From Parasynechococcus marenigrum WH 8102 (lineage in GTDB: Bacteria; Cyanobacteriota; Cyanobacteriia; PCC-6307; Cyanobiaceae), in NCBI RefSeq assembly GCF_000195975.1, contig NC_005070.1, forward strand, positions 1,110,001 through 1,142,000: a stretch of 32,000 nt of DNA, in the 5' to 3' direction. Below are positions 14,988 through 31,652 of this stretch, piece by piece (position 1 is the stretch's first letter; every line of letters begins with the position of its first letter). Both the position numbers and the translations under genes were made by a program. Below the pieces are notes generated by a model, which saw only the letters and a program-made list of their open reading frames with translations, was not told the origin of the DNA and did not search any database.

Positions 14988-15199
14988 GGCCAGGGCCTGT
15001 CGAGCAGCTCAAGAGTAGCCTTGAAGGAACTCTAGGGCAACTACAGGGTTGCTGTGCAGTGCATTTGCTGTTGCTAAACGGTTGCAACGGGGCGTCTCTC
15101 CGATTGCTCTGATCGATTGCTCCCCATCCTTTTCGCTGTGAAGACGCATCACAGATTGTTGATCGGCCCTATTGGTTCAGACATTGTGATCAGGATTAC

Positions 15200-15388
15200 A
15201 TGGGCCCTATGAACACACCGACCGGGACGTGGAGTAACAACCAACCTCCAGCCACATTCGAAAAGCTTTGGCGTGGACTAATTCTTGTTGGTGCGATTCA
15301 CCTCGGCGGCATGCTTGTCAACGTTGTGTTTCAGATGCTTGGAAACCACAGCCTGGATGGCATTCCCGCCAAGTTCTTAGGCCTGTAA
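15200..15388 (+). CDS. small membrane protein (hypothetical)
   Basis: 62 aa with one TM helix, in the low-GC tract. Confidence 0.3.
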   Translation: MGPMNTPTGTWSNNQPPATFEKLWRGLILVGAIHLGGMLVNVVFQMLGNHSLDGIPAKFLGL

Positions 15389-15473
15389 TTGAGCAGAATT
15401 TATTTTAAGTATGACGATCACAGGTGTTCCCAGCACAGGATCACCTTTGATTTCTTGAACTCATCCGTAGCGA

Positions 15474-15791
15474 TCATGACATTTTCGCAAACAACTTTTT
15501 GTGGTAATCAACGACGTCCTGGCAGCCGATCACCGGCGTGAATTCCATCTCAATTCCAAACTGAGCACGCCAGGGCGCAAAGTGCTCAAAGATCTGCGCG
15601 TCGCTCTCAGCTTTAAACAGTAAGGTCACACGACCGGCGCCGGGAGCATGGACGCGAAAGAGCATTTCAAATCCGTCAGCGTTATCGGCTTGAGCCATTT
15701 CGCCTGAGTCCCAGAGCTCACAGAAACTTTTGTAGGCAGCCAATTGGCTTTCAATATCAGGAAAGATGCAGTCTGCTAGGTACATTTGCAT
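15474..15791 (-). CDS. small alpha/beta protein, DUF3303-like (tentative)
   Basis: 105-aa clean ORF. The C-terminal pattern (W..F.IEMEFTPVI...DVV) recalls DUF3303, from memory. Confidence 0.55.
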   Translation of the reverse strand: MQMYLADCIFPDIESQLAAYKSFCELWDSGEMAQADNADGFEMLFRVHAPGAGRVTLLFKAESDAQIFEHFAPWRAQFGIEMEFTPVIGCQDVVDYHKKLFAKMS

Positions 15792-16132
15792 TGTCGGGGT
15801 GAGCGAGGGTCAATCAAGTGCTATCAACGCTTGTGTTTCTTGTCCTCTTCTGCATCCTTTCGGGCGTTGTACGATTATTTCTCGATGACCATCCGATCAG
15901 AGTTGTGCCTGAGCTCTGCGGATCCCTCTGTCTGATGAATGACAGAGTGACTGAGTTGTTGTGGGAATCATTGTGAGTTGTTTTTTTGAAAGACGGATTG
16001 GACTTGGATTTGACGGCTCCACGTCTCTATTGATGCTCTTGTTAAAAATAGATTGATCGGGTGCGTTGCCAGCAGTGCTCCCTCAGTCGGACGAATTTCC
16101 AGCCAGAATTGATGCAACAATCTTCTTCTCGC

Positions 16133-16327
16133 ATGCGGTTGTTGCTAGTCGCGGTGATGTCCATAACAGCCCTTGCTGTTGTGCTGATTGCTAGGGCCAG
16201 TGGTTCCCAGGACTACACAACGCATATTGGACTGCGGGTGCCACCTTCTGAAGCGCGCTGCGTCAAGACAGGCGAGCTCAGCACTGACGACGACAAACGG
16301 CTGAGTATTTTCCAGTGCCCTGTTTGA
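16133..16327 (+). CDS. small secreted or membrane protein (hypothetical)
   Basis: Signal/TM-like MRLLLVAVMSITALAVVLIA. The ORF opens at GTG 16061, so the start is uncertain. Confidence 0.3.
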   Translation: MRLLLVAVMSITALAVVLIARASGSQDYTTHIGLRVPPSEARCVKTGELSTDDDKRLSIFQCPV

Positions 16328-17217
16328 TCAGGAGTCTTGAGCCAGCTGAAGGCAAGGTGAGGAACAGGGTTTGCACGAGCCAGCATTGAGACGTTTGAAC
16401 AACTAGGCTTACTGCTTTGTTGGTGAGCAATGATTCCAGAGCCGCACGAGCTTTTCGATATCGACAAGGGTGCCGACAAGTTGTTCTTCATTGGTACCAC
16501 CTGGATCGTATTGTTTCTATTTTTGCTCTAAAAGGCATAGTCCACTATCACTCATGGTGTTTGAAAATAGTCCGCTAGGGAAAGGTTTACGCAGAGAAAG
16601 ATTCTCCTCTTGCAAGCTTTTGTATCGAGTTAATGTCGCTTGATCCGCTATAGGCCTTAGTGAACCATGTGCAGATCTTGCTGATAACCGCTGTTCTACC
16701 AGGCAGCTTGGAAAATTGGAAAAATTGCGTCAAATCTACCAAGTAGTACGTAAAATTCAGATACGATATCGAAATTACTCGATTTGAAGTCGTTTTCTTG
16801 ATGTATTAGTTTTGTTTTATCGCATGACATTTTCACAAGAACCTGTTGGTGCTGCAAATTACTCAAGCTTAAACATCATCGACCTCAATAAATAAGCTGT
16901 GCCCGTAATTAGTCAGATTCAGTTAATCACTTCCAGGGCGTTGGCAGTGGGTTTGTCTATTGCTCATTTGTATTGAGAGGCTCATAACTTCTGATAAACT
17001 CACCATTGCTGTTTTTAATTTTGCCTGCATCCCACGACTGAGGGATTGATTTGGATAGGGGTCTCCCTCAAATGGGTGAACTCGTCATGCAGCCAAAGCA
17101 AAACAGGACAGATTCAGCGGTCAATGCACAAACAATGATGTGGAGCCGCCGATTAAGACTCGATCAACTAAAAATTGATAGGTCCTGCCGCCAACTGGAC
17201 AGGCTTCATTCTGTTTT

Positions 17218-17280
<63 letters not shown>

Positions 17281-17320
17281 CTTTTTCATCACTAAACCAT
17301 TGTAAATACTGGATTCTTGC

Positions 17321-17360
17321 GTGCCCTAAATCGTGAGTGCTCTAAAACGTGCCCTAAATC
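17321..17360 (+). promoter_or_regulatory. three tandem 12-bp repeats GTGC(C/T)CTAAA(T/A)C, candidate arm-type recombinase or Xis sites
   Basis: Exact GTGCCCTAAATC at 17321 and 17349, with variant GTGCTCTAAAAC at 17337. They lie 40-80 bp inside attL. Confidence 0.4.
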
Positions 17361-17401
17361 CAGCTGGAGCTTTTCTCGAAGGTTGCACGGAGCCGCCAGC
17401 C

Positions 17402-17411
17402 GTACTAGTAC
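17402..17411. promoter_or_regulatory. 10-bp perfect palindrome GTACTAGTAC (copy 1), candidate operator
   Basis: It lies 22 nt upstream of the start at 17433. The identical decamer recurs at 21286. Confidence 0.35.
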
Positions 17412-17432
17412 TGGTGTATTGGGAAGAGGAAT

Positions 17433-17681
17433 GTGTCGGTTGATCATGCGAGCGCCGTTGCAGCGCCAAAGTCGGATCCCGTCTTTCTGCACGTCAAAGC
17501 AGGCATGACCGTGATCGTCACTGACACGGATGGGGCCTGGCGGATGGCTGATGTGATTTGGGTCGATGGCGGTGCCAGGAACCCAAAGGTTCCAACGTTG
17601 TTTCAGGTGGCTGACGTCGATACAGGCGTCATCAACTGGATCAACGCTGACTTAGTGACTCACATCGTCCCCAGGGTCTGA
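17433..17681 (+). CDS. DUF3104-like small cyanobacterial protein (tentative)
   Basis: 82 aa. GTG start preceded by GGAAGAGGA. The pattern W.MADVIWVDGGARNP..PTLFQVADVDTG.INWINADLVTHI recalls DUF3104, from memory. Confidence 0.55.
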   Translation: MSVDHASAVAAPKSDPVFLHVKAGMTVIVTDTDGAWRMADVIWVDGGARNPKVPTLFQVADVDTGVINWINADLVTHIVPRV

Positions 17682-17722
17682 TTTGAGTGGATAGGGTCCA
17701 CGGACTCTTAAGTCCACTTCTC

Positions 17723-17899
17723 ATGAACCGGTCCCCAAATTTCGCCTTCATTGGCGGCACCGTGATCATCGCGATCATGGTCATGACTGCCTTCGCCAAT
17801 TTGGCTAACGCTGGCGGCTGCTCTTACAGCAAGTCAGCCGAAGCAACCCCCGAGCAGGTTGAGCAGAAAAAGAGCGAGGAGCCTGGGGTAGAGGCTTGA
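17723..17899 (+). CDS. small secreted protein or lipoprotein candidate
   Basis: 58 aa with a hydrophobic N-terminus ending in ANAGGC. The ORF opens at GTG 17687. Confidence 0.35.
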   Translation: MNRSPNFAFIGGTVIIAIMVMTAFANLANAGGCSYSKSAEATPEQVEQKKSEEPGVEA

Positions 17900-17932
17900 T
17901 CGCTTAGGACAAGCCACAAGCTGTCCTCGCCT

Positions 17933-17951
17933 AACTGGCACAGTGACAGTT
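17933..17951. promoter_or_regulatory. 19-bp near-palindrome AACTGGCAC-A-GTGACAGTT upstream of sRNA copy A
   Basis: One mismatch from the perfect palindrome found at 21734. It overlaps the expected -35 region, and TATGAT at 17960 is a -10 candidate. Confidence 0.4.
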
Positions 17952-17971
17952 GGAACGCTTATGATCCGAAA

Positions 17972-18056
17972 GTGAGGAAAAAATCTCACGGGTTGGAAAC
18001 AAGGACACAACCCCGTGCGGTTTCGGGACCCCTGCCTTTGGCGGGGGTTTCTTTTT
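17972..18056 (+). ncRNA. Yfr2-family-like sRNA, copy A
   Basis: 5' GUGAGGA, then the hairpin CACGGGUU/AACCCCGUG with GGAAACA in its loop, then an intrinsic terminator (CCCCTGCC-TTT-GGCGGGGG plus a T-run). About 85 nt. Confidence 0.55.
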
Positions 18057-18196
18057 GTGTAGGGACGCCGTCGCCTGCCATCGCACACCTATTGTCAGCT
18101 TGTAGCAACAGCTACAAAACGTTCACCCCTCTTTCGGGGGGCGCAGACACTCCAAGCCACGGAACGGGGACTTGGAATTATCTGAGGAACTATCCG

Positions 18197-18364
18197 ATGA
18201 CTGCTCTTCTTTACAGAGGCCGTCCTTACACGACTCCACAAGCCTCACCCAAATCTTGCGTTGAGCTGACCTATCGCCGCGGTCACTACAACACCTGCCG
18301 CGAAGAAGTGGCTCGCAACGTTCATCAGAGCTTGACTTATAGAGGCGCCACCTACAACAAGTAA
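18197..18364 (+). CDS. DUF4278-domain small protein
   Basis: 55 aa with three (L/T)YR(G/R)..Y motifs (LLYRGRPY, LTYRRGHY, LTYRGATY). GAGGA lies 8 nt upstream of the ATG. Confidence 0.65.
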   Translation: MTALLYRGRPYTTPQASPKSCVELTYRRGHYNTCREEVARNVHQSLTYRGATYNK

Positions 18365-18386
18365 TCAAGGCACCGTAAGGACATGG

Positions 18387-18413
18387 CCCCTGCTACGGCG
18401 GGGGTTTCTTTTT
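18387..18413 (+). terminator. intrinsic terminator, a duplicate of the sRNA terminator
   Basis: CCCCTGC-loop-GCGGGGG followed by TTTCTTTTT. Near-identical to 18029-18056 and 21829-21856. Confidence 0.6.
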
Positions 18414-18504
18414 GACATCCGTTGCCCACAGGGTTAGTGAATCAAAATTTTGCCTGGGGCTCGCAAAAGCCGCTCATGGCACCATCCCTAGTGCTCTAGG
18501 GCAC

Positions 18505-18534
18505 AAAAAAACCCGGTGTGACTTGCACAACGGG
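18505..18534 (-). terminator. minus-strand intrinsic terminator inside repeat copy A
   Basis: The minus strand reads CCCGTTGTG-loop-CACACCGGG followed by T7. The only difference between copies falls in the loop. Confidence 0.5.
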
Positions 18535-18737
18535 CTGGGTGATGGGGGAAATCTAAATATGGCTTAGCCGCCAAGTACTGACCAGTCCCACATATGGTGT
18601 CACCCATTACTGGTCAGAACTTCGATACACAATTAAGGAGTTCCACGGGGCACAAATGATGTGGCACAAATGAGTCCAATGCGGCTAGTTTTGTCGGGTC
18701 CGGCCGGGTGATGGGGATCAGCCGAAAGGATTGAAGG

Positions 18738-18766
18738 CCTCGGGGATCTCTCCGGGGTTTCTTTTT
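18738..18766 (+). terminator. plus-strand intrinsic terminator at the end of repeat copy A
   Basis: CCTCGG-8 nt loop-CCGGGG followed by TTTCTTTTT. The difference between copies falls in the loop. Confidence 0.5.
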
Positions 18767-19311
18767 GGCCGCCTCAGTCGCCGCTCTGTCCTGGTTCGGA
18801 AGTGCTGACCGTAGGTATTTGTACTGCTAGCCATAAGCCCGCGAGTGCTTATGTTTCGACCAATCAGCTGCTTGTAGGCCCCCTTTCGACGGCTCTTGGC
18901 CTTGCGCCTGTCGCCTTGGAAACGCCGATCCATGACTGACCGCACTCTCAGCATCGCCACTGCACTGCGTGAAGCACAGCTGCAGTATCTTGAGGCTTCT
19001 CTTGCATCAAAGTCAGATTCCAAGCCTCAGCCCCTGGCTCAAGCTCCCAAAGACAATGACGAACTAGACGCGACTGGTCGTTAACGGTTGCTCTTCAGTC
19101 TTGATCAGCACGTCATTTTGAGACAACCCGGCTCCTCGAGATTGTCTCTGGTGGCTTTTGTTGGGGCGATTGTCTCAATAGCCCTGGGCGTCTTGCTCGC
19201 CTGGTTCACTTCCAGAATGACTGTCTGGTTTTTCAGTCCTGACCGGTATCGGCGTTAGGGCTTTTCAGAAATTTGAATCCTCATCACTCATATCTGCAAC
19301 GCCATCGGGCA

Positions 19312-19509
19312 CTACATGTCGATCGCTCTGCCCAACTCCAGTGGGTATCCCAAGGCAGCCCCTTCTATTTGTTGGGCTGACTCACAGCCGTTGACCAAAT
19401 CAATGATGTGGGACCACGGAACCGCGAGGAAAACGATGTTTGCCCCGAGCGATGCGATTACGTATAACAAAGCTCGCAACGGCACATACCTTTGAGTCAA
19501 ATACTCCAT
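19312..19509 (-). CDS. small membrane protein (hypothetical)
   Basis: 65 aa from the ATG at 19509 with one TM helix (ALLYVIASLGANIVFLAV). A frame-disrupted homolog lies at about 22280-22371. Confidence 0.35.
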   Translation of the reverse strand: MEYLTQRYVPLRALLYVIASLGANIVFLAVPWSHIIDLVNGCESAQQIEGAALGYPLELGRAIDM

Positions 19510-19851
19510 GTGTTTTAAGACATCTAAAGATCGCAGAAAGCTCTCCCTGGTAATCGCTCGTGCCAAGGAGGCTTTATCTGCCAGCTGCCGGGTCGCTCTC
19601 CCGGTGCTGCCTGGACAGTTACGCGTTCAAGCGTTGTCTGCATGGACCCCAAATATGGGGGCAAGCGAGGGAGATGGCAGTGTCTTTTTCTACAGGTTTT
19701 AGTTTCCGGAAAATCATCCGTGAAACTCTATTCAATGGTATCACGGACTACTGACGAGACGCCCTCCCTGCTCCCACCTGGAACCGTTTAGCACTGGTTT
19801 CAGCCGTCGATCACATTGGGCGCCCCACCTCGATCTGTTGTTGGGGGTGAC

Positions 19852-20037
19852 CTAATTGATCAGCTTTTCGTCGATACCGTGTTCGCGAGCGCATTCGACT
19901 TTGTCGCTCGTATCACTCACGCACTGCCCATAATCCTTCCATTGCTCTTGGCTTGGTCCGCAAGATGCCAAGAAAATGCCGGTTGCAGTTCCTACAGCTA
20001 CTAAAAGACGACGCTTAGAGGTAATGGTGGTACTCAT
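19852..20037 (-). CDS. small lipoprotein candidate
   Basis: 61 aa with a signal peptide and lipobox-like FLASC. Confidence 0.45.
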   Translation of the reverse strand: MSTTITSKRRLLVAVGTATGIFLASCGPSQEQWKDYGQCVSDTSDKVECAREHGIDEKLIN

Positions 20038-20128
20038 CGTGTCGGGACCTCGGTCGACCTCAGTTGTATTGATCTGACGTTATCGAGAACAAAACTTCTA
20101 TCAACATGTCTGTGGTCTTAAACGTCGA

Positions 20129-20344
20129 TCATGATTGACGTTCCAGATTTAGCAGCCTGCGCCTTGCTTGAGCGTCCTCTTGCTTAGCCTCTTCTGCCTC
20201 GGCGCGTAGAAAACGCTTCCTTTGAGCGGATTCATAGCCACTCATGTCTGGCTGCTTCTCCTCGGCTTGTTTGGGCTTTGGCTTGGGAACTGGCTCGGGC
20301 TTATCCAAACCCATCAAAAGTGGGTGGATTCCTCTACGACTCAT
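20129..20344 (-). CDS. small charged protein, SAQRKRF-motif family, copy 1
   Basis: 71 aa. The N-terminus MSRRGIHPLLMGLDKP and the motif GYESAQRKRFLRAEA are shared with the ORF at 22740-22898. Confidence 0.5.
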   Translation of the reverse strand: MSRRGIHPLLMGLDKPEPVPKPKPKQAEEKQPDMSGYESAQRKRFLRAEAEEAKQEDAQARRRLLNLERQS

Positions 20345-20727
20345 TTGTTTGATTTGCTACGTGGTTGTCGCGACGTGATCTTCCTGACCCAATCGGACCA
20401 GTAGATCATGTTGAATCCAAATTTGATTCGTGGTGTTGATGAAGACATTTGAAGACAACTGTCGACAGCTTTGCGTTTGGGGCTCGGTTGATGGCTTCGC
20501 TCTGCTCTCTCTGGTACTGGTCCACCACTGTTTTTGGAGGATCTTGAACGCTTCGGATGTATCCGAGAGGCGTCTGACCCTTCCCGCGGTCTTCTAGGTT
20601 GAGTGGGATAAGACTCTCCGCTAGCCGTAGCCACTACTGTCTTGATCGACCTGGCGACCTAAGTCAAAACCCTCTAAAAAACCTATACAGGTTCGGTGTA
20701 GCAATAGCTCTTCCCAAGTGGGACACC

Positions 20728-20877
20728 ATGACTGACGAGAGTCAGGCAATGGTCAAGAAGGTCGGCCTCATCGGTGGTGGAGGCCTCCTCCTGCTTGCCT
20801 TCAGCAAGATGCTTTTACCGCTGGCCCTGCTCGGCGGAGGTAGCTACGTCGCCTGGCGTTCCCTCAACAATAAGTAG
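20728..20877 (+). CDS. small membrane protein (hypothetical)
   Basis: 49 aa with a Gly/Leu-rich TM segment. Confidence 0.35.
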   Translation: MTDESQAMVKKVGLIGGGGLLLLAFSKMLLPLALLGGGSYVAWRSLNNK

Positions 20878-20882
20878 GGGGC

Positions 20883-21029
20883 ATGGAAGACAGCACCAAT
20901 AAGGCCAGACGAAGACTCTTCATCTGGGCCATCAGCATCAATGTCGTCGCTTGGGGCGGCTACTTGTTTTTGACCAAGGTCATGGGATTTGACTACGAGC
21001 TGATGAGACAGGCCAGGCTGGACGGCTAA
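20883..21029 (+). CDS. small membrane protein (hypothetical)
   Basis: 48 aa (MEDSTNKARRRLFIWAISINVVAWGGYLFL...). AGGGGG precedes the ATG. The ORF is below the length cutoff of the ORF track. Confidence 0.3.
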   Translation: MEDSTNKARRRLFIWAISINVVAWGGYLFLTKVMGFDYELMRQARLDG

Positions 21030-21285
21030 GGATTAGAACACGTCGGGCCTGACGCTGATTACCTTTTAGGGTCTTTGAGTAGGGATCAGCAGCTGCCAGC
21101 CCTTCCCCTTTGCTGGGGGTTGATTTCGTAAACACCCTGATGTGCCCGAATCATCGACCGATTGCTTAGAAGGCAGTTGCTCTGTCAGTGGTGCCATTGC
21201 TTTTGAGGTGTTTTTTCGTGCTTGCACGGAAGATTGATCTCATCCCTGCCCGTAGTTCTCGGTAGTTGCACAAAGCCACCTTCCT

Positions 21286-21295: not shown

Positions 21296-21311
21296 TTGCG
21301 TACTAGCGGCC

Positions 21312-21515: not shown

Positions 21516-21533
21516 GATCAATCTTTTGTGTCC

Positions 21534-21577
21534 GTGAGAGTGGCGCAGTTTGGTAGGGCGCTTGCTTTGGGAGTAAG
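21534..21577 (+). pseudogene. tRNA-Pro(UGG)-like 5' fragment (acceptor 5' strand, D arm, anticodon arm; no T arm)
   Basis: GTGAGAG-TG-GCGC-AGTTTGGTA-GGGC-G-CTTGC-TTTGGGA-GTAAG. The downstream sequence lacks a T arm or an acceptor 3' strand. Confidence 0.4.
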
Positions 21578-21733
21578 CCGTGAAACCAGCCAAAGCCCCT
21601 CTGGCACCTTGAAAATCTTCTTCCCAGTTATTGAGACTGGAGACACTTGGAGACAAACCTCTCCGAGGCAAGAAAATTGCTTGCCTATGAAGCAAGCGCG
21701 CTCTTCGGGACAGGCGGCAAAGCGTCTACTCGA

Positions 21734-21752
21734 AACTGGCACAGTGCCAGTT
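21734..21752. promoter_or_regulatory. 19-bp perfect palindrome AACTGGCAC-A-GTGCCAGTT upstream of sRNA copy B
   Basis: The 9-bp arms are exact. It occupies the same position relative to the sRNA as 17933-17951. Confidence 0.45.
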
Positions 21753-21772
21753 GGTAGAAGTAGGTTATGGAA

Positions 21773-21856
21773 GTGAGGAAAAATCTAACGGGTTGGAAAC
21801 AAGGACACAACCCCGTGAGGTTTCGGAGCCCCTGCCTTTGGCGGGGGTTTCTTTTT
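21773..21856 (+). ncRNA. Yfr2-family-like sRNA, copy B
   Basis: It has the same GUGAGGA 5' end, GGAAACA loop hairpin and terminator as copy A, with few substitutions. Confidence 0.55.
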
Positions 21857-22226
21857 GAACTCAGTTATCCACAAGGTCAGTGGATCCAAACCTTGCCTGG
21901 GGCTCGCAAAAGCCGCTCATGGCACCATCCCTAGTGCTTTAGGGCACAAAAAAACCCGGTGTGACTCGCACAACGGGCTGGGTGATGGGGGAAACCTAAA
22001 TATGGCTTAGCCGCCAAGTACTGACCAGCCCCACATATGGTGCCACCTATTACTGGTCAGAGCTTCAATACACAATTAAGGAGTTCCACAGGGCACAAAT
22101 GATGTGGCACAAATGAGTCCAATGCGGCTAGTTTTGTCGGGTCCGGCCGGGTGATGGGGATCAGCCGAAAGGATTGATGACCTCGGGGATCACTCCGGGG
22201 TTTCTTTTTGGCCGCCTCAGTCGCCG
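21857..22226. repeat. structured noncoding repeat, copy B
   Basis: Collinear with 18414-18783. It contains the equivalent minus-strand (21948-21977) and plus-strand (22181-22209) terminators. Confidence 0.8.
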
Positions 22227-22739
22227 ATGTCGTTCCAGGCAGCCCCTTCTACAGGCAGTGCTTACAAGCCAGCTACCTGATCAAGGAAAGGACTGCAGAG
22301 ACCGCGAGAAGAGCTTGCTCTTCCCGAGCGATGCGGTGTCTGCACACACAAGCTCCTCCTGATACGGAGCCATGCGTCGTATGCACTGACTCTTTTCAGC
22401 ATTCCGTTGCACAGAACGGTGTCCCCCGCGATCGCTCACGCGGGAGACAGGGGGTTCTGCCAGCTCTCAGATCGCTCTACTGAGGCCGTCGCGTGTGGAA
22501 GAACTCCCCATGTCCGCGCCCAACAAATATGGGGTCAAGCAGCGTGTTCGGCAACACGTCTTTTGGTCATTTTTTGATTCCAGAAAATTTTCCGTGAAGG
22601 CCTGTGAATCTGGTAATCGGCAACACCGACAGCAGGACGCTCATCCTCCAAATCACACTTCACGACTGACTTCTCATAAGGTCGGATGATGTGGGTCATC
22701 AGCTATGGCCAACCGTTAGACGTCGATCACGTCGGTCGT

Positions 22740-24160: not shown

Positions 24161-24577
24161 TTAAACATCGACTGCCTTTCCGTCTTCGATGGCTTGAAGC
24201 GTCCTGCGAATCTCTTGCAGCTGCTTCCGTTGCTCAGCTTCCAAGACGTTCTCGCGTAGAATCTTGAAGCTTTCGCTGATGGCCTGGGTTCTGGCGTAAG
24301 CCTTGACCTTGGGATCCAGCGCAATCTTGATCAACTCGTCAGCCAGCCTTGGCGCGGCTGAAGTCAGAAGGTTGTTGGCGACGTTGATGTTCTCGCGTAC
24401 CAGCGATTCGATGAACTCTTCAGCCCTGCTGTCTCGATACCACTTGCGAAGACATGGTGCTTTGACCCCAACAGCAGCTGCCGCATCTGCCCAAGTCGAG
24501 CCATTGGCGCAGAGCGTCAGCCCCTTGATGATGTGCGGCGGGATTGAGTCGTAGCGGTTGATTTCGGTATAACTCAT
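24161..24577 (-). CDS. HTH protein with terminase-small-subunit-like layout (tentative)
   Basis: 138 aa. N-terminal HTH-like GSTWADAAAAVGVKAPCLRKW, then a helical or coiled C-terminus. ATGA overlap with the upstream gene. Confidence 0.55.
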   Translation of the reverse strand: MSYTEINRYDSIPPHIIKGLTLCANGSTWADAAAAVGVKAPCLRKWYRDSRAEEFIESLVRENINVANNLLTSAAPRLADELIKIALDPKVKAYARTQAISESFKILRENVLEAEQRKQLQEIRRTLQAIEDGKAVDV

Positions 24578-25144: not shown

Positions 25145-25720
25145 ATGAAGTCCAATCGCCACGGTCAGAGTCGTGTGCTGGACACGAACCAGCTCGACCT
25201 GCTCATCTCAAATCTTTCTGATCAATACCACCAGCTGGTGGCTGAAGTGTGTCGCCGCACTGGCTGCCGCGTTGGTGAAGCAACGCAACTGACCTGGGGC
25301 ATGGTTTCGGAATCTGCCATCACGTTCCAGCGCGGTATTACCAAAGGCAAGCTGGCCTCAAGGTCTGTGCCGGTTACGCCAGTGTTGTGGGAAGCCCTGC
25401 GCGCCTGGAGAGATGTCTGGGTAGTGCGGCAGGGTCGTGATCCTGTGGCTGGTGATTACCTCGTACCAGGACAATTTGCTGGTTCGTGTCTCAGTACGCG
25501 AAGCTTTATGGATGCTCTTGAAAAGGCGGCTGCTGAATCGGGCCTAGAAGGCGTCTCAAGCCACAGTTTCCGGCGTTCGGCACTAACTAGTGCTCACAGT
25601 GCTGGAGTGCCTCTGAGGGTGCTTATGGCCCTGTCTGGGCATAAATCCATGTCAGCCCTGCAGCGTTACTTAGAGGTGACGCCGGCTCAACGTGTTGCTG
25701 CCGCTGCTGCCTTTGCATAG
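25145..25720 (+). CDS. small tyrosine recombinase, catalytic domain only
   Basis: 191 aa with the full R-K-HxxR-H-Y set (TGCRVGEA, TKGK, HSFRRS, GHKS, LQRY) and no N-terminal core-binding domain. Confidence 0.8.
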   Translation: MKSNRHGQSRVLDTNQLDLLISNLSDQYHQLVAEVCRRTGCRVGEATQLTWGMVSESAITFQRGITKGKLASRSVPVTPVLWEALRAWRDVWVVRQGRDPVAGDYLVPGQFAGSCLSTRSFMDALEKAAAESGLEGVSSHSFRRSALTSAHSAGVPLRVLMALSGHKSMSALQRYLEVTPAQRVAAAAAFA

Positions 25721-27080: not shown

Positions 27081-29390
27081 CTAACGAACCACCCGGATTG
27101 ACAAGCCGCCATCAAACACTTGGACTAAGCCACGGCTTTGCAGCATCAGCGCCATTTGCTTTAGTACGGCAAGTGTTGGTCGATCCTTACTGCTCCAGCT
27201 TTTGCGGATTGAACTAAGTGCAACACCTCGACCTGGCGCTTTGCCTTGCTTCTTACGAGCTTTCTCCAGCAGCTTGTCGGCGAGCTCAAGCATCGGATTC
27301 CTGGCACGTTCGTGAAGCTCAACTGCCCTGGTTTTGCCGGCCATCACCAAGTTGGCGGCCAGCTGGAGCGAACGCTCGGAAACAACCGTGGCGGGTTGCA
27401 CCATGCCACGCTCCACCAGTTCTTCTTGACCGGTGGCAATACGGATGAAATGGATTGCCGCCGCTACTCGCAGCACCTGCCCAGGTCCCTTCGCCCACAG
27501 TGCTTCAACCTCTTCACTGCAAGCCTGCAGCGATAAATTCTCAAGCTGGTTGAACAAGCTGGTGAAGAGTTGCTCTGCAACTGCTGACAGCACGTAGGCA
27601 TGGTTCCCGTCTTGGAGGGCAGCCAAATAGAGATTGCCAAGAACAGCTGAAAGTTTCTCGGTGTTTACGTCACCGTCCACCAGCTGACGACGTGAACGAG
27701 GTAGGTGAACAAACAACGGCCTGGAGTTGAAGCCATTGGCGTTACCCGCCTCTAGTTGATCCAAAAATACCTTGGGTTGGATGCCGCCGATCACCCCCAA
27801 CTTCCCCGCACGAACCTCGCGGGATTTCTTGGCATCGGCAAAGACGTCGTTGCTGTAGGCACCGTCGTAGCTCGACAGCCAGAACTCAACATCACCCACA
27901 CCAGCACCACCCTCATCAGCCATCTGCTTAAGCCAGCCGTTTAACTCATCACGCACCAGCAGCCCTGGTACGTCTTCGCCATGGATCGCAAAATCTGCAC
28001 GGATCCCTTGGGTCGATGGCGCGGTGTAGATCAAATTGCGTTTTCGAAAAGCCGGTAGGTCTTCACCATCAGCAGCAGCGGTTTTGCGTCGTTGCTGCTC
28101 ACGTTCGTTCCAGCCATCAATGAACGCGATGGGCTTTGCCATTGGGCCGTTAATCAGCCATTGAAGCAACACAGATTTGGCCGTGCCACTGCTGCCGATG
28201 TGGAACACCCACACCGTGGGGATTTCCTCCATCGACCGACCACGGATGCGAACCTGAGGCGGCAACATCGCGGCGACGCCGGCCATCAACGTCATCACGA
28301 TGGCCTCATCACTGAACTTCAAGCCATCCCGCAGAACGCGGAACATCGGTAGCCAGTCGGCTGGAACGTAATCCGCCAAATGGATTTGGGGTGGCTCGCC
28401 ACGAAGCAGCAGGTCATCAAGTGCATCAGCAATATCCTGTTGACGCTCCAGCGACTCTCGATATTGCTCCGCAAACTTTGCAAGACCAAAGCCGTTTGAT
28501 CTAGTCCCGTATTGATTGACTAGCAACTGCACTTCATCTGCACTTGCACCCTGTTGTATTGCCTCTTTAATCTTGGTGTGTGCATCGTTTTCGTGCTGTT
28601 CGAGCGTCTCTATTGCTGACTTCCCCTTTGGCGTCGTTAGGCCATGACGTGCTAATTCCACTCTGGCCAGGTATTCATCAACTAGCTCATCAATATTACG
28701 GCGATTAAACGGCTTGATAATGTTTGCCCACTCTTCTGCAGAGCAGTTAATAGGTTTTTCCCACTGATCCTTTGGAAGCAGGAATAAATTAGCATTTTCG
28801 TGCTTTCCTCCCTTTCTAAGCTTTTTAGCAGTCCTTAAATTACGAACAAGTCCATGGCAAATACCTGGTTCACCGTCTGGATAGATGTGATGCTGTAGCT
28901 CCTCGCTCAGCAAAGTAAGCTCATAAAAGCGTGACCGCCACGTATTTGCCTCTACAAATTCGAATTGCATCAAAAGATCAATGGCTAGTGTGGCGAGGTC
29001 TCCACCACGTCGAAGAGAAAAACGATCATATTGCTGCCAACCTTGCTTAAGTAGATCAATGCAGTCACTTATCCATTGATCAACATCAATAGATAAATTC
29101 CTGGCATTGTCGCACTTAGCCTGGATTTTGTCGAGCGCAGACTGTGATGCCCACCACCGTTTATCTAAGACATCCCACAGCCAACAGGCCATTGGATGAA
29201 GTGGTGTGTAGTTTGGCTCTGGTTCACGATCGTCGTGGCCAAGCCATACGTCAAACAGATCACTTGCATAGTCCCAATGCTTAACGTTCCAGCCATAAGT
29301 CTCTTTGAGCTTCTTAAGCCGTTCAATCTCGGCATAGATAGGAGAATCGTCCTCAGGTGCTGAAGACTGCTGGACTGGTGCGTGCGCCAC
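27081..29390 (-). CDS. DUF3987-type P-loop NTPase (helicase-like replication protein) with an unassigned ~350-aa N-terminal region
   Basis: 769 aa. Walker A-like GSSGTAKS, Walker B-like LLVRDELNGW, plus GGIQP and NGFNSRPLFV motifs in the order recalled for DUF3987. Confidence 0.8.
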   Translation of the reverse strand: MAHAPVQQSSAPEDDSPIYAEIERLKKLKETYGWNVKHWDYASDLFDVWLGHDDREPEPNYTPLHPMACWLWDVLDKRWWASQSALDKIQAKCDNARNLSIDVDQWISDCIDLLKQGWQQYDRFSLRRGGDLATLAIDLLMQFEFVEANTWRSRFYELTLLSEELQHHIYPDGEPGICHGLVRNLRTAKKLRKGGKHENANLFLLPKDQWEKPINCSAEEWANIIKPFNRRNIDELVDEYLARVELARHGLTTPKGKSAIETLEQHENDAHTKIKEAIQQGASADEVQLLVNQYGTRSNGFGLAKFAEQYRESLERQQDIADALDDLLLRGEPPQIHLADYVPADWLPMFRVLRDGLKFSDEAIVMTLMAGVAAMLPPQVRIRGRSMEEIPTVWVFHIGSSGTAKSVLLQWLINGPMAKPIAFIDGWNEREQQRRKTAAADGEDLPAFRKRNLIYTAPSTQGIRADFAIHGEDVPGLLVRDELNGWLKQMADEGGAGVGDVEFWLSSYDGAYSNDVFADAKKSREVRAGKLGVIGGIQPKVFLDQLEAGNANGFNSRPLFVHLPRSRRQLVDGDVNTEKLSAVLGNLYLAALQDGNHAYVLSAVAEQLFTSLFNQLENLSLQACSEEVEALWAKGPGQVLRVAAAIHFIRIATGQEELVERGMVQPATVVSERSLQLAANLVMAGKTRAVELHERARNPMLELADKLLEKARKKQGKAPGRGVALSSIRKSWSSKDRPTLAVLKQMALMLQSRGLVQVFDGGLSIRVVR

Positions 29391-29825: not shown

Positions 29826-30038
29826 TCACTTCACCGGCTTGATGCTGCTGGATCGAAACTGCCCTGCCAGCCTCCACTTCGTGAGAGTCTCGCTTGTGAC
29901 GCCTAGCCTTCTCGCAAGCTCACGCGGCGGCAACCACGCACTTGCTGTGGTTGGCGAACGATCCAGCAGCAGATTGATGTCATGACGCATTTGCCGCACT
30001 TCTGCGGTCAACGACGCCAACAATGAGGTTTCAGACAT
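29826..30038 (-). CDS. excisionase/AlpA-like HTH protein
   Basis: The HTH sequence LPPRELARRLGVTSETLTKWRLAG, located immediately downstream of the integrase gene on the same strand. The ORF also has a GTG at 30047. Confidence 0.6.
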   Translation of the reverse strand: MSETSLLASLTAEVRQMRHDINLLLDRSPTTASAWLPPRELARRLGVTSETLTKWRLAGQFRSSSIKPVK

Positions 30039-30191
30039 GAGGAACACCCAAGAGGAACTAGTCGTTAGTTCGCAAAGGCGCTGACGCCCGGGGCCTTGGA
30101 TGAACCTCTCACTGCCATAAGACGGCTTGCAAATTCAGTTTAACCCGTTTCTACTGTTCGCGCATGGGTGCTCCTCAGGCTTGTTAGTGGT

Positions 30192-31334
30192 TTAGAGATT
30201 TTCAGCAGCTCTCAGGATGTCTCTCTTCTGCATCGCAGCTGCATAGGTCCGCATGTGGATGCTGATGTCGTGCCCTGCTGCTTTGGCTGCCACTCCATCA
30301 CCAAGCTGGCTTTTCAGGATGGAGCGGATGCACCACGAATGTCTCAGGTTGCTGTTTTCGAGTTTCACCGTTCCACACCATCGGCTCTGAAGCCACTTGT
30401 TCATGCGATCGACGTGCCCTTTTGTTTTGTTGCTGTCGTAGGCGACAGGGTCAAGAAACTCATTTGGCCTCTCAACTGTGCAGATTTCGAGGGGTTCAAT
30501 CCACTCTTTCGGCAACGCCAGGGCTTCTCGTTGCTCTGGTGGTGCGTTTTTTTGCTTGATACCCAGGACTGATGCAGTCGCACCAGTTTCTGATGGCACC
30601 AAGCTGAACACCTCTGACACCCGACATCCGTAGACCAGCAGGGCTGCGAAGCACCAGCCATAAATGCTGGAATGACGGTTGTTCAACGCAAACTCAAACA
30701 GCTCTTCGTCTAACGGAAGCTTCGGCACCCTGGTTAGATACTTCGTATGGACCTTGTCGAGTTCTTTAGTTGGCAGCTCGGCAAACTTTGCCAATGCCTT
30801 GGCTTTCTGGCAGAACTCGTGGCGCGCCTTGCTCGCTGCTGGTAGTGACTTGGCAACCGCAACAAGTGCCTCAATCGTCAGCAGATCAGACGTGTCAGGA
30901 TTTTTCTTGAACGATGCCTCGATTCGATCCCACGTTCGCTTCGCTTGAGACTTCTGGGCCGTAGTGCTGACGTCCCGCTTTTCGTACCAGTCGGCTTTGA
31001 ACCTCGCTGTCCATGCACCAATGGTCTGGCTTTCAGATGGCTCCTCTGGCGCTTGGGTCGTTTCGCCCGATTGAAGCCAGCCGTCCCAGCTGAAGGTGCC
31101 GAGCTTTCTGTCAGTCGAAAGCTTGATCGCCAAAGTCTTGGCGCGATTCAGCCCTGCCTTGGTCGCATCACAACCGGTTGGGACGTCGTATTGAACCTCG
31201 TGGTTGCTCCCATCTTTGTGCGGCAAGACGGCTCTGAGGCAAAGCTTGTTGCGCCGTTGCCGGATTGAGACGCCAGCTTTTTCGGCCTTAAGACCTTGGT
31301 TGACGGCTTTGACGAGATCGCCAACTTCAGACAA
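30192..31334 (-). CDS. int: tyrosine integrase
   Basis: 380 aa. Catalytic Arg in YGCRVSEV, then LRHSWCIRS and AGHDISIHMRTY. It lies next to the tRNA target. Confidence 0.9.
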   Translation of the reverse strand: MSEVGDLVKAVNQGLKAEKAGVSIRQRRNKLCLRAVLPHKDGSNHEVQYDVPTGCDATKAGLNRAKTLAIKLSTDRKLGTFSWDGWLQSGETTQAPEEPSESQTIGAWTARFKADWYEKRDVSTTAQKSQAKRTWDRIEASFKKNPDTSDLLTIEALVAVAKSLPAASKARHEFCQKAKALAKFAELPTKELDKVHTKYLTRVPKLPLDEELFEFALNNRHSSIYGWCFAALLVYGCRVSEVFSLVPSETGATASVLGIKQKNAPPEQREALALPKEWIEPLEICTVERPNEFLDPVAYDSNKTKGHVDRMNKWLQSRWCGTVKLENSNLRHSWCIRSILKSQLGDGVAAKAAGHDISIHMRTYAAAMQKRDILRAAENL

Positions 31335-31503: not shown

Positions 31504-31566
31504 AACGGAGAGGGTGGGATTCGAACCCACGGTGCCCGTGAAGACACGCTGGTTTTCAAGACCAGA
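31504..31566 (-). repeat. attR: repeat copy inside the intact tRNA-Ser
   Basis: 62/63 identical to 17218-17280. Confidence 0.9.
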
Positions 31567-31592
31567 GCCATAAACCACTCGACCACCTCTCC
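31506..31592 (-). tRNA. tRNA-Ser (anticodon UGA), 87 nt, CCA not encoded
   Basis: Acceptor GGAGAGG/CCTCTCC, anticodon arm CTGGT-CTTGAAA-ACCAG, long variable arm, T arm GTGGG-TTCGAAT-CCCAC, discriminator G. Confidence 0.9.
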
Positions 31593-31652
31593 AGGGTGTC
31601 AGCGCCTGAGCGATCAGACGCTGTTCAACTTTAAGTCAGCCGGATGCGACGA

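What the first reader, a model, noticed from the sequence alone, without database searches (positions are those of the whole stretch)
17972..18056. The mobile element carries two Yfr2-family-like sRNA genes with a GUGAGGA 5' end
Copies at 17972-18056 and 21773-21856 share a 5' GUGAGGA, a hairpin presenting GGAAACA in its loop, and a strong intrinsic terminator. As I recall, these are the hallmarks of the cyanobacterial Yfr2 family, whose 5' region is complementary to the conserved Yfr1 motif. Island-borne copies could change host sRNA dosage and titrate Yfr1, which would make this regulatory cargo rather than protein cargo.
Basis: partly seen in the sequence, partly recalled or inferred. Interest (0 to 1): 0.7.

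Follow-up and report, generated by a model that had tools for sequence, protein, structure and literature searches.

The report
Known Yfr2 sRNA genes on island
The two small-RNA genes are real members of the cyanobacterial Yfr2 family, but they were published in 2005 as yfr2 and yfr3 of Synechococcus WH8102; what this check adds is that both sit inside an apparently intact integrative element inserted in a serine tRNA gene.

Summary
Positions 17972-18056 and 21773-21856 (+) hold two copies that are about 95% identical. Each has a single-stranded 5' GUGAGGA(A)n, a hairpin with a UGGAAACAAGGA loop, and a 12-bp terminator with a U tail. Both pass the Rfam Cyano-1 model (RF01701, the Yfr2 motif) at 48.4 and 48.3 bits against a gathering score of 41.

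The window is Synechococcus WH8102, and window coordinate + 1,110,000 equals the genome coordinate. Axmann et al. 2005 list yfr2 at 1127972..1128056 and yfr3 at 1131773..1131856, which are these same loci. Yfr2 antagonism of Yfr1 (2019) and island-borne Yfr2 in Prochlorococcus MED4 (2008) are also published. The finding is therefore correct but already known.

New context found here:
- Both genes lie inside a ~14.3-kb tycheposon-like element. It is bounded by 63-bp tRNA-Ser(TGA) repeats and carries a tyrosine recombinase, a DUF3987 protein and an excisionase-like gene.
- The cargo region is RNA-rich: two Cyano-2 RNAs, a glutamine-II riboswitch with a DUF4278 peptide, and a duplicated unknown ~350-nt unit.
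- The same Yfr2 subtype, with the same palindromic promoter, occurs in two other element-associated contexts. It is absent from about 55 other related loci.
- Complementarity to Yfr1 is only 7 nt.

Expression and mobility were not tested.

The parts
17219..17281 (-). attL: displaced 3' 63 nt of tRNA-Ser(TGA), forming the distal boundary of the integrative element
   Evidence: Direct repeat of 31505-31567 with 62/63 identity (D3).
17433..17681 (+). Small cargo ORF, DUF3104 (82 aa)
   Evidence: Pfam PF11302, E 3.5e-23.
17933..17953 (+). Palindrome AACTGGCACAGTGACAGTTGG overlapping the -35 position of the yfr2 promoter. A TATGAT -10 box follows at 17960-17965.
   Evidence: Conserved at identical spacing in yfr3, L029 and L072. 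None expected by chance.
17972..18056 (+). yfr2 sRNA gene (Yfr2 family, Rfam Cyano-1), 85 nt
   Evidence: RF01701 at 48.4 bits against a gathering score of 41. Fold and terminator. Published as WH8102 yfr2 at 1127972..1128056 (PMC1242208).
18117..18176 (+). Glutamine-II riboswitch aptamer (Downstream-peptide motif)
   Evidence: RF01704 at 62.9 bits against a gathering score of 33.
18197..18364 (+). DUF4278 small peptide gene (55 aa) controlled by the riboswitch. A terminator follows at 18385-18406.
   Evidence: Pfam PF14105, E 2.5e-8. Terminator.
18407..18765 (+). Copy A of an unknown ~350-nt unit ('D1'), ending in a terminator at 18735-18760
   Evidence: 93-95% identical to 21852-22207 (D1). 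No Rfam match.
19409..19611 (-). Cyano-2 RNA, copy A
   Evidence: RF01702 at 180 bits.
21533..21600 (+). Degenerate 5' half of tRNA-Pro(UGG), an att-like scar about 130 nt upstream of the yfr3 promoter
   Evidence: Alignment with related elements L019, L024, L029 and L059. ARAGORN finds no intact tRNA there.
21734..21754 (+). Palindrome AACTGGCACAGTGCCAGTTGG (perfect 9+1+9) in the yfr3 promoter. A TAGGTT -10 box follows at 21761-21766.
21773..21856 (+). yfr3 sRNA gene (Yfr2 family, Rfam Cyano-1), 84 nt
   Evidence: RF01701 at 48.3 bits. Fold and terminator. Published as WH8102 yfr3 at 1131773..1131856.
21852..22207 (+). Copy B of the unknown 'D1' unit, ending in a terminator at 22179-22202
22288..22490 (-). 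Cyano-2 RNA, copy B
   Evidence: RF01702 at 187.4 bits.
24161..24577 (-). 138-aa HTH protein conserved in the element family. In relatives this gene and an adjacent ~87-aa gene (window counterpart 24574-24834) lie immediately upstream of a large terminase gene.
   Evidence: Weak HTH_23 hit. 82-83% nucleotide identity to L065 and L066. Relatives' gene order.
25145..25720 (+). Short (191 aa) tyrosine-recombinase-domain protein, a conserved core gene of the element family
   Evidence: Pfam Phage_integrase, E 3e-21. PHROG 1 integrase. Present in L059-L066.
27081..29390 (-). DUF3987 protein (769 aa as an ORF), a candidate replication or helicase module
   Evidence: Pfam PF13148, E 2e-26. Weak PHROG DNA helicase hit. 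100% identical to the WH8102 protein P0001.
29826..30047 (-). 73-aa HTH protein, a candidate excisionase or regulator
   Evidence: Weak HTH hit. Its position is between the integrase and the DUF3987 gene. Weak homologue in L072.
30192..31334 (-). Tyrosine recombinase (integrase) facing inward, next to the tRNA
   Evidence: 26% identity (E 2e-22) to the L063 integrase, which carries Pfam XisAC_N and XisAC_2nd. GCR...LRH..R...GH...Y motifs are read in the translation.
31505..31593 (-). Intact tRNA-Ser(TGA). Its 3' 63 nt form attR. nrdJ follows at 31653-32000.
   Evidence: ARAGORN, Rfam, nrdJ homologues.

Best explanation
These are the two previously published Yfr2-family sRNA genes (yfr2 and yfr3) of Synechococcus WH8102.

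Shown here:
- Each is a self-contained ~85-nt unit. It has a TAnnnT -10 box, a 19-21-nt palindrome in place of a -35 box, an unpaired 5' GUGAGGAAAAA, a hairpin displaying UGGAAACAAGGA, and an intrinsic terminator.
- Both lie in the cargo part of a ~14.3-kb integrative element (17282-31504) inserted into the 3' end of tRNA-Ser(TGA).
- The element has an inward-facing tyrosine recombinase, an excisionase-like gene and a DUF3987 protein, so it is tycheposon-like.
- The two genes belong to a duplicated cassette: Yfr2, then an unknown ~350-nt unit, then a Cyano-2 RNA and a small ORF on the opposite strand.

Inferred from published work on Prochlorococcus MED4:
- The unpaired 5' motif pairs with the UCCUCAC core of the conserved Yfr1/Yfr10 motif and so relieves Yfr1/Yfr10 repression of their targets.
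- The loop motif provides a second, independent interaction surface.
- Transcription is probably activator-dependent through the palindrome. This may involve the GntR/PlmA-type regulator that controls other Yfr2 genes under nitrogen starvation and high light.

Inferred from comparison:
- The Yfr2 module reached the element as DNA adjacent to a tRNA-Pro att site. It moves, or is lost, together with the element.
For: Identity:
- Rfam RF01701 hits are above the gathering score.
- Two compensatory pair changes occur in hairpin 1 among the homologues.
- The coordinates are identical to yfr2 and yfr3 in PMC1242208 Table 2.
- The DUF3987 protein is 100% identical to a WH8102 protein.

Element:
- G+C shift and tRNA-Ser.
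- 63-bp att repeat with one mismatch.
- Integrase homology to an XisAC-type recombinase.
- DUF3987 and the second recombinase.
- Relatives of the element sit next to tRNA-Ala, tRNA-Leu and tRNA-Ser-like att sequences.

Promoter:
- The palindrome and the -10 box are conserved at fixed spacing in four sequences.
- No canonical sigma-70 promoter is found.

Yfr1 pairing:
- Cofolding pairs GUGAGGA with UCCUCAC while both RNAs keep their hairpins. ddG is -12.6 kcal/mol, and 0 of 500 shuffles of the 5' 12 nt reach that value.
- The Yfr1 motif ACUCCUCACAC is invariant in 31 cyanobacteria, including WH8102 (PMC2190773).
- Yfr2 counteracts Yfr1 in reporter and pull-down assays (PMC6778093).

Mobility of the module:
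- The same Yfr2 subtype occurs in element contig L029, whose DUF3987 protein is only 41% identical. L029 nevertheless shares 78-83% nucleotide segments with the window around yfr3.
- It also occurs in L072, at the same nrdJ-tRNA-Ser hotspot, beside a tRNA-Pro fragment.
Against: - Expression in WH8102 was never tested in the papers read ('NT' in PMC1242208), and I cannot test it here.
- Complementarity to Yfr1 is 7 nt. The family consensus gives 13 bp and ddG -21.5 kcal/mol, so titration may be weaker than in MED4.
- The palindrome starts at about -39, not at -55 to -57. Its centre is CACAGTG, not the GTGACAC-like centre described for CGRE1, so control by the GntR regulator is unproven.
- Yfr2 is not general cargo of this element family. 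No Cyano-1 hit was found in about 45 other DUF3987 loci or in 11 loci that encode homologues of the neighbouring 65-aa protein.
- Present-day mobility of the element is inferred from its intact parts only.
Confidence: 0.78

Rival explanations
1. 'Actuaton' or leader function. The main role of the strong Yfr2 promoters would be to drive downstream transcripts by terminator read-through. Those transcripts are the glutamine-II riboswitch with its DUF4278 peptide after yfr2, and the ~350-nt D1 unit after both copies. Trans-acting regulation would be secondary.
For: - The riboswitch starts 60 nt after the yfr2 terminator, and D1 starts at the yfr3 terminator.
- No separate promoter was detected for these downstream units.
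- Yfr2c of Synechocystis is a published actuaton (PMC6596454).
Against: - The terminators are strong: 12 bp with 8 G-C pairs, followed by U5.
- The downstream neighbour differs between the copies and in L029 and L072. The sRNA unit itself is conserved with compensatory changes.
- This reading does not exclude a trans-acting function.
Confidence: 0.2
2. The copies are passively carried, decaying passengers. They would be host DNA picked up next to an att site, with no current regulatory role in WH8102.
For: - They lie beside a tRNA-Pro att scar inside a mosaic, duplicated cargo region.
- Pairing with Yfr1 is short, at 7 nt.
- No expression data exist for them.
Against: - Both copies keep the promoter palindrome, the -10 box, the 5' motif, the loop motif and the terminator.
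- The homologues in L029 and L072 differ at about 20% of positions, yet they keep all of these features and show compensatory stem changes.
- Both copies score above the curated Rfam threshold.
Confidence: 0.07
3. The RNAs serve the element rather than the host. For example, they could couple host nitrogen or light stress signalling to element induction, or act on the co-carried Cyano-2 and D1 RNAs.
For: - Yfr2, D1 and Cyano-2 are duplicated together as a cassette.
- The Yfr2 5' end has a 10-bp match to Cyano-2 copy A, with E -14.7 kcal/mol and z -4.4.
- Tycheposon hallmark genes respond to stress (10.1101/2020.12.28.424599).
Against: - The match is absent from Cyano-2 copy B (z -0.8), and it lies in a paired region of the Cyano-2 model.
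- No significant pairing was found with D1 or with the riboswitch mRNA.
- Most related elements lack Yfr2.
Confidence: 0.05

Closest known systems
Yfr2 sRNA family (Yfr2-5 of Prochlorococcus MED4; Rfam RF01701 Cyano-1)
   Same: - It passes the covariance model.
- It has an unpaired 5' GUGAGGA, GGAAACA in the loop of the 5' hairpin, and a Rho-independent terminator.
- Its length of 84-85 nt is in the range of other family members (65-95 nt).
- It is multi-copy and sits at a non-syntenic locus.
- These two loci are themselves the published WH8102 yfr2 and yfr3.
   Different: - The 5' motif is followed by an A-tract (GUGAGGAAAAA) instead of the consensus GUGUGAGGAGU. Complementarity to Yfr1 is therefore 7 nt rather than 11 nt.
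- The conserved promoter palindrome sits at about -39 to -19. The described position of CGRE1 is -56 to -36.
Island-associated ncRNAs of Prochlorococcus MED4 (Steglich et al. 2008, PMC2518516)
   Same: Yfr2 and Yfr3 of MED4 lie in genomic islands 1 and 2. In that paper ncRNAs are concentrated in hypervariable, horizontally acquired regions.
   Different: Here the island is a discrete element with intact att repeats, an integrase and a replication-type gene. In the papers read, this element structure had not been pointed out for the WH8102 loci.
Tycheposons (Hackl et al., bioRxiv 10.1101/2020.12.28.424599)
   Same: - It is inserted at a tRNA and flanked by a full and a partial tRNA.
- An inward-facing tyrosine recombinase sits at one end, with an excisionase-like gene and a helicase or primase-type gene next to it.
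- Cargo lies at the distal end.
- Relatives carry terminase genes, making them PICI-like.
   Different: - The host is Synechococcus.
- The recombinase resembles XisA/XisC-type enzymes. Whether it belongs to the tycheposon-specific recombinase lineage was not tested.
- The cargo is dominated by small RNAs and small ORFs rather than nutrient-acquisition operons. The tycheposon preprint does not mention sRNA cargo.
Prophage- and island-encoded sRNAs in enterobacteria (for example DicF, cited in PMC7368042)
   Same: A horizontally acquired element carries trans-acting sRNA genes that plug into host regulatory networks.
   Different: Here the sRNA belongs to a family that is otherwise near-universal in the host phylum. 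Its best-documented partner is another sRNA (Yfr1/Yfr10), so it acts as an anti-sRNA.

Membership tests
Yfr2 sRNA family (Rfam RF01701 Cyano-1) | The covariance-model score reaches the curated gathering threshold. | tested here: met
   48.4 and 48.3 bits against a gathering score of 41, full-length model matches.
Yfr2 sRNA family (Rfam RF01701 Cyano-1) | An unpaired 5' motif is complementary to the core of the Yfr1/Yfr10 motif ACUCCUCACAC. | tested here: met
   GUGAGGA is unpaired in the MFE and centroid structures. It pairs with UCCUCAC in the cofold, with ddG -12.6 kcal/mol. Only 7 of the 11 motif positions are complementary; the family consensus pairs over 13 bp.
Yfr2 sRNA family (Rfam RF01701 Cyano-1) | The 5' hairpin presents GGAAACA in its loop. 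| tested here: met
   The 12-nt loop is UGGAAACAAGGA in both copies. This feature is described in PMC1242208.
Yfr2 sRNA family (Rfam RF01701 Cyano-1) | Rho-independent terminator, with a total length in the family's range (MED4 members 89-95 nt; Synechocystis members 65-80 nt). | tested here: met
   12-bp stem with 8 G-C pairs, then U5. Lengths are 85 and 84 nt.
Yfr2 sRNA family (Rfam RF01701 Cyano-1) | It accumulates as a discrete abundant transcript from its own promoter. | not testable with these tools
   A conserved -10 box and an upstream palindrome are present. Expression of the WH8102 genes is marked 'NT' in PMC1242208.
Yfr2 sRNA family (Rfam RF01701 Cyano-1) | A CGRE1 operator for the GntR regulator PMM1637 is present. 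This holds for several but not all family members. | tested here: inconclusive
   A 21-nt element of the form AAC-N13-GTTG is present. Its position (-39) and centre (CACAGTG) differ from the text description of CGRE1. The CGRE1 logo and alignment were not available.
Tycheposon | It integrates at a tRNA and is flanked by a full-length and a partial tRNA (att repeats). | tested here: met
   tRNA-Ser(TGA) lies at 31505-31593, and its 3' 63 nt are repeated at 17219-17281 with 62/63 identity.
Tycheposon | An inward-facing site-specific integrase sits at one end. | tested here: met
   The ORF at 30192-31334 (-) lies 170 nt from the tRNA and is transcribed into the element. It is homologous to an XisAC-type tyrosine recombinase.
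Tycheposon | The integrase belongs to the tycheposon-specific tyrosine recombinase lineage, and the hallmark gene profiles are shared. | not tested
   The authors' profiles and phylogeny are not available in these tools. Pfam and NCBIfam gave no direct hit for this ORF.
Tycheposon | A small replication module (primase or helicase) lies next to the integrase. | tested here: inconclusive
   The DUF3987 protein is 0.8 kb from the integrase. Only a weak PHROG 'DNA helicase' hit supports a replication role, E 1e-4.
PICI-like phage satellite | It carries packaging or interference genes (terS, terL or capsid). | tested here: not met
   Relatives L062, L063 and L068 carry a large terminase gene. The WH8102 element has none, and the corresponding region holds the sRNA cassettes.

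The most novel reading that the evidence does not exclude
Yfr2-family genes may be spread among marine picocyanobacteria as hitch-hikers of tRNA-targeting integrative elements. They would be captured as DNA flanking tRNA-Pro and tRNA-Ser att sites. That would explain the family's long-noted variable copy number (1-9) and lack of synteny. In WH8102 the strain's only Yfr2 genes would then sit on an excisable element, so gaining or losing the element would switch the antagonist of the conserved Yfr1/Yfr10 regulators on or off. In that case RNA cassettes (Yfr2, Cyano-2, D1, glutamine riboswitch-peptide) would be a cargo class of tycheposon-like elements.
Probability: 0.2. Interest if true: 0.6.

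Novelty: already known. Interest (0 to 1): 0.3.

Why it matters
The sRNA genes and their likely mode of action are already published, so the finding itself adds little.

The context is more useful. A near-universal cyanobacterial anti-sRNA is encoded inside what looks like an intact, excisable tRNA-Ser element. Other abundant RNAs sit with it (Cyano-2, a glutamine riboswitch with its peptide, and an unknown 350-nt unit). This offers a concrete and testable explanation for why Yfr2 genes vary in number and position between strains. It also suggests that tycheposon-like elements can move regulatory RNA modules as well as nutrient-acquisition operons.

WH8102 is a standard laboratory strain. Excision assays, deletion of the element, and measurements of the Yfr1 and Yfr10 targetomes with and without it may therefore be practical.

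Tried and rejected
1. Yfr2-like sequences in viruses. A pattern scan of IMG/VR (GTGAGGA-N8-22-TGGAAACAAGG) gave 26 hits. All are chance or coding matches without a hairpin or terminator. BLAST of the cargo region against GenBank phages and of the Yfr2 unit against plasmids found nothing.
2. Yfr2 as regular cargo of the element family. I fetched about 45 loci encoding DUF3987 relatives from genomes and metagenomes. Only L029 has a Cyano-1 hit. Eleven loci encoding homologues of the neighbouring 65-aa protein have none.
3. A Yfr1- or Yfr10-like gene in the window. The motif ACTCCTCACAC was searched allowing one mismatch and was not found.
4. Identity of the promoter palindrome with CGRE1. The text description only partly fits, and the supplementary alignment is not held. 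This is left open.
5. Pairing of Yfr2 with the co-carried RNAs. Only one of ten comparisons stood out (Cyano-2 copy A), and it is not reproduced in copy B.
6. Counting Yfr2 copies in the rest of the WH8102 genome. This was not possible.
7. Reading Gierga et al. 2009 (the Yfr2 family paper). It is not held in the library.
Full report
OBSERVATION

- Both copies begin with GTGAGGA followed by an A-tract.
- They are 95% identical over 79 nt (family D2).
- As RNA, the first 8-9 nt stay unpaired. A hairpin follows with the 12-nt loop UGGAAACAAGGA, then a 12-bp G+C-rich stem and U5. MFE is -37.0 and -35.5 kcal/mol, about 3 sd below shuffles.
- The terminator scan ranks these two stems first in the region.
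- The loop 12-mer occurs exactly twice in the window against 0.22 expected.
- Rfam cmscan reports Cyano-1 (RF01701) at 17966-18028 (48.4 bits) and 21767-21827 (48.3 bits). The gathering score is 41, and both are full-length model matches.

WHAT THE WINDOW IS, AND PRIOR KNOWLEDGE

The DUF3987 protein encoded at 27081-29390 is 100% identical to a protein of Parasynechococcus marenigrum (Synechococcus) WH 8102. Axmann et al. 2005 (PMC1242208, Table 2) list WH 8102 yfr2 at 1127972..1128056, 'overlapping SYNW1139'. They list yfr3 at 1131773..1131856, between SYNW1140 and SYNW1141. Expression of both is marked not tested. These coordinates equal the finding's coordinates plus 1,110,000. The two genes are therefore the published yfr2 and yfr3 of this strain.

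The same paper describes the GGAAACA loop as the family hallmark. PMC8400943 states that the Yfr2 family is characterised by the Cyano-1 motif.

- The Yfr1 motif ACUCCUCACAC is invariant in 31 cyanobacteria, including WH8102 (PMC2190773).
- In Prochlorococcus MED4, Yfr2 binds Yfr1 and Yfr10 and cancels Yfr1 repression of a target (PMC6778093).
- Yfr2 genes are multi-copy at unconserved loci.
- In MED4, Yfr2 and Yfr3 lie in genomic islands 1 and 2 (PMC2518516).

THE MOBILE ELEMENT

G+C falls from about 62% to about 50% between roughly 15000 and 31500. tRNA-Ser(TGA) lies at 31505-31593 on the minus strand. Its 3' 63 nt, from the anticodon stem to the 3' end, recur at 17219-17281 with one mismatch (D3).

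Next to the intact tRNA is a 380-codon ORF (30192-31334, -) that is transcribed into the element.
- It has no direct Pfam or NCBIfam hit.
- It is homologous (26% identity, E 2e-22) to the integrase of related contig L063, which carries the Pfam XisAC_N and XisAC_2nd families.
- It retains the GCR...LRH..R...GH...Y motifs of tyrosine recombinases, read from the translation.

Inward from the integrase lie four further genes:
- a 73-aa HTH protein (29826-30047);
- the DUF3987 protein, with a weak PHROG helicase hit;
- a 191-aa tyrosine-recombinase-domain protein (25145-25720);
- a 138-aa HTH protein (24161-24577).

This core recurs in the same order in metagenomic relatives. In some relatives a large terminase gene follows (L062, L063, L068). 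Relatives sit beside tRNA-Ala, tRNA-Leu or a tRNA-Ser-like att sequence.

The architecture matches the definition of tycheposons. Membership of the tycheposon-specific recombinase lineage could not be tested, so I call the element tycheposon-like. Both sRNA genes lie inside the att repeats, in the distal cargo part.

THE CARGO REGION

The region 17282-24000 is unusually rich in RNA genes. It contains:
- yfr2;
- a glutamine-II riboswitch (18117-18176), followed by a 55-aa DUF4278 peptide and a terminator;
- two Cyano-2 RNAs on the minus strand (19409-19611 and 22288-22490);
- yfr3.

The annotated ORF SYNW1139 that 'overlaps' yfr2 probably corresponds to the mechanical ORF 17972-18364. That ORF runs through the sRNA and the riboswitch, and only its last 55 codons look real.

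Repeat analysis shows a duplicated cassette. It runs: palindrome, Yfr2, a ~350-nt unit ('D1', 93-95% identical between copies and ending in a terminator), then Cyano-2 and an 'MSRRGIHPLLMGLDKP...' small ORF on the opposite strand. In copy A the riboswitch-peptide gene is inserted between Yfr2 and D1.

PROMOTER

The consensus scan finds no sigma-70 -35/-10 pair in 17000-23500. Both copies instead share a palindrome and a -10 box at fixed spacing.
- The palindrome AACTGGCAC-A-GTG(A/C)CAGTT is perfect (9+1+9) in yfr3.
- It is followed after 6-7 nt by a TAnnnT hexamer: TATGAT in yfr2 and TAGGTT in yfr3.
- The hexamer ends 6 nt before the G of GUGAGGA.

The same palindrome, spacing and -10 box are present upstream of the two homologues found elsewhere, L029 and L072. 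The layout suggests an activator-dependent promoter.

The published Yfr2 operator CGRE1 is 21 nt long in Synechococcus, flanked by GTTG with an inverted repeat 13 nt apart. It binds the GntR regulator PMM1637. That description partly fits, because the element here has the form AAC-N13-GTTG. However, the position (-39 rather than -55 to -57) and the centre (CACAGTG rather than GTGACAC-like) do not fit. The published alignment was not available. Identity with CGRE1 is therefore left open.

PAIRING WITH Yfr1

No Yfr1 motif occurs in the window. Yfr1 of WH8102 lies elsewhere, at complement 706826..706881.

I cofolded each WH8102 RNA with the published MED4 Yfr1 sequence, which carries the invariant motif.
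- GUGAGGA pairs with UCCUCAC while all hairpins are retained.
- ddG is -12.6 kcal/mol.
- None of 500 shuffles of the 5' 12 nt reaches this value (their mean is -4.0).
- The Rfam consensus forms 13 bp with ddG -21.5 kcal/mol.

All four sequences of this subtype read GUGAGGAAAAA instead of the consensus GUGUGAGGAGU. The UCCU core, whose mutation abolishes Yfr1 and Yfr10 interaction with an mRNA target (ppa), is covered. Titration is nevertheless likely to be weaker than in MED4.

COMPARATIVE EVIDENCE ON CARGO STATUS

Most relatives lack Yfr2.
- Of about 45 loci encoding DUF3987 relatives, only L029 has a Cyano-1 hit, at 54.4 bits.
- L029's DUF3987 protein is only 41% identical to the WH8102 one. 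Even so, L029 shares 78-83% identical nucleotide segments with window 21318-21452, 21538-21616 and 21734-21857.
- The gene order in L029 is the same as in the window: DUF3987, then Yfr2, then a degenerate 5' half of tRNA-Pro(UGG).
- That tRNA-Pro fragment (window 21533-21600) also occurs in relatives L019, L024 and L059.

The chromosomal site is an insertion hotspot. The right flank of the island is the class II ribonucleotide reductase gene nrdJ.
- In contig L073, nrdJ is followed by tRNA-Ser(TGA) and tRNA-Pro(TGG) in tandem, and then by a different island.
- In the 173-kb contig L072, nrdJ is followed by a tRNA-Ser truncated where the WH8102 att core begins, at the anticodon stem-loop.
- L072 then has an excisionase-like remnant, psaE, and a Yfr2 gene whose transcribed sequence is identical to that of L029. 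This Yfr2 scores 56.1 bits.
- Nine nucleotides after that Yfr2 terminator comes a partial tRNA-Pro fragment, then about 130 nt homologous to window 21545-21682, and then a 38% G+C island.

This Yfr2 subtype is thus found three times, each time in or beside an element and next to a tRNA-Pro att scar. Across the three distinct sequences that were scored, hairpin 1 shows two compensatory pair changes and 98.7% of cells are paired.

These results support capture of the Yfr2 module as att-flanking DNA and its movement with elements. The sample is small, and most relatives lack it. Loci encoding homologues of the neighbouring 65-aa protein (11 loci) have no Cyano-1 hit. Phage, plasmid and IMG/VR searches were negative.

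MECHANISM, WITH SHOWN AND INFERRED STEPS

Shown: gene anatomy, family membership by covariance model, location inside an att-bounded element, conservation of the promoter elements, and feasibility of a 7-bp Yfr1 interaction.

Inferred from MED4 experiments: the RNAs antagonise Yfr1 and Yfr10 through the 5' motif, and they have further targets through the loop motif.

Inferred from layout: transcription depends on an activator. Read-through into the riboswitch or D1 units (the 'actuaton' alternative) is possible.

Not shown: expression in WH8102, present-day excision of the element, and whether these are the strain's only Yfr2 genes. Axmann 2005 lists only these two, but I could not scan the whole genome.

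VERDICT

The observation and its interpretation are correct, but the genes, the family, the Yfr1 antagonism and the island association of Yfr2 are all published. Novelty is therefore 'already known'.

This check adds three things. First, the WH8102 island is recognised as an apparently intact tRNA-Ser tycheposon-like element with RNA-dominated cargo. Second, there is a conserved palindromic promoter. Third, there is a small body of evidence that this Yfr2 subtype travels next to tRNA att scars. Interest is 0.3. The most novel reading still open is that Yfr2 genes are disseminated by such elements and are wholly element-borne in WH8102. I give that a probability of about 0.2, and an interest of about 0.6 if true.

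Noticed in passing
window 18407-18765 and 21852-22207 (+): A duplicated ~350-nt unit ('D1') is 93-95% identical between its two copies. It directly follows a terminator and ends in its own strong terminator. It contains a repeated GGGTGATGGGG motif, has no convincing ORF and has no Rfam match. Its size resembles the 290-328-nt multi-copy Yfr103 described in PMC5069720.
   Followed up: partly
window 19409-19611 and 22288-22490 (-): Two full-length Cyano-2 RNAs (180 and 187 bits) lie inside the element. Each has a CCCCATATTTG(G/T)(G/T)GG near-palindrome centred about 45 nt upstream of the model start (roughly -38 to -53). This fits the text description of the Yfr103 promoter palindrome, so Cyano-2 may be the 5' part of Yfr103. 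This was not verified.
   Followed up: partly
window 21533-21600 (+); also L019 6710-6730, L024 23-43, L029 8389-8409, L059 14312-14332, L072 12430-12450: A degenerate 5' half of tRNA-Pro(UGG) sits in the middle of the island and recurs in related elements. In L073 intact tRNA-Ser(TGA) and tRNA-Pro(TGG) are adjacent, downstream of nrdJ. This suggests that the WH8102 island is a composite of elements that used both tRNAs.
   Followed up: partly
window 18117-18364 (+): A glutamine-II riboswitch followed by a 55-aa DUF4278 peptide gene lies inside the mobile element, 60 nt after the yfr2 terminator. The annotated ORF that overlaps yfr2 (SYNW1139) probably merges the sRNA, the riboswitch and this peptide.
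   Followed up: partly
window 15050-17218: A 2.2-kb stretch of low G+C (45-49%) lies outside the att repeat and includes a DUF3303 gene (15474-15791, -). It looks like a remnant of an older insertion at the same hotspot. No further tRNA-Ser fragment was found there.
   Followed up: partly
L062 7349-8905, L063 8472-10031, L068 9385-10632: Relatives of the element (57-62% identical DUF3987 protein) carry a large terminase subunit. In L062 and L063 it follows the conserved 138-aa and 87-aa genes. The family therefore looks like phage satellites or PICI-like elements. The WH8102 member lacks the terminase and has sRNA cassettes in that region.
   Followed up: partly
L073 1655-4548: Another island at the nrdJ-tRNA-Ser/tRNA-Pro hotspot carries a transaldolase-family gene, an antitoxin, DUF401, a wcaG RNA (RF01761, 92 bits) and tRNA-Gly. 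This gene set is reminiscent of cyanophage auxiliary genes.
   Followed up: no
L072 10346-10393: tRNA-Ser(TGA) is truncated after the anticodon stem-loop, where the WH8102 att core begins. No intact copy lies within 10 kb. This could be a disrupted tRNA, a decayed element junction or an assembly artefact. A psaE gene lies in the same island-like stretch.
   Followed up: no
window 19424-19433 (Cyano-2 copy A) vs Yfr2 5' end: The Yfr2 5' GUGAGGAAAA has a 10-bp complement (UUUUCCUCGC) in Cyano-2 copy A, with E -14.7 kcal/mol and z -4.4 against shuffles. The conserved Cyano-2 segment CUCCUCGCGG resembles the Yfr1 motif core. The match is not reproduced in copy B and lies in a paired region of the model.
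   Followed up: partly
L074-L083: A widespread ~6-7-kb marine element is bounded by a 374-aa integrase and a 129-aa integrase fragment, and is full of 55-190-aa ORFs. One of these is a homologue of the 65-aa Cys/His-rich protein at window 21318-21515. The element occurs in at least two different flanking contexts, and no tRNA or Rfam RNA was detected in these loci.
   Followed up: no
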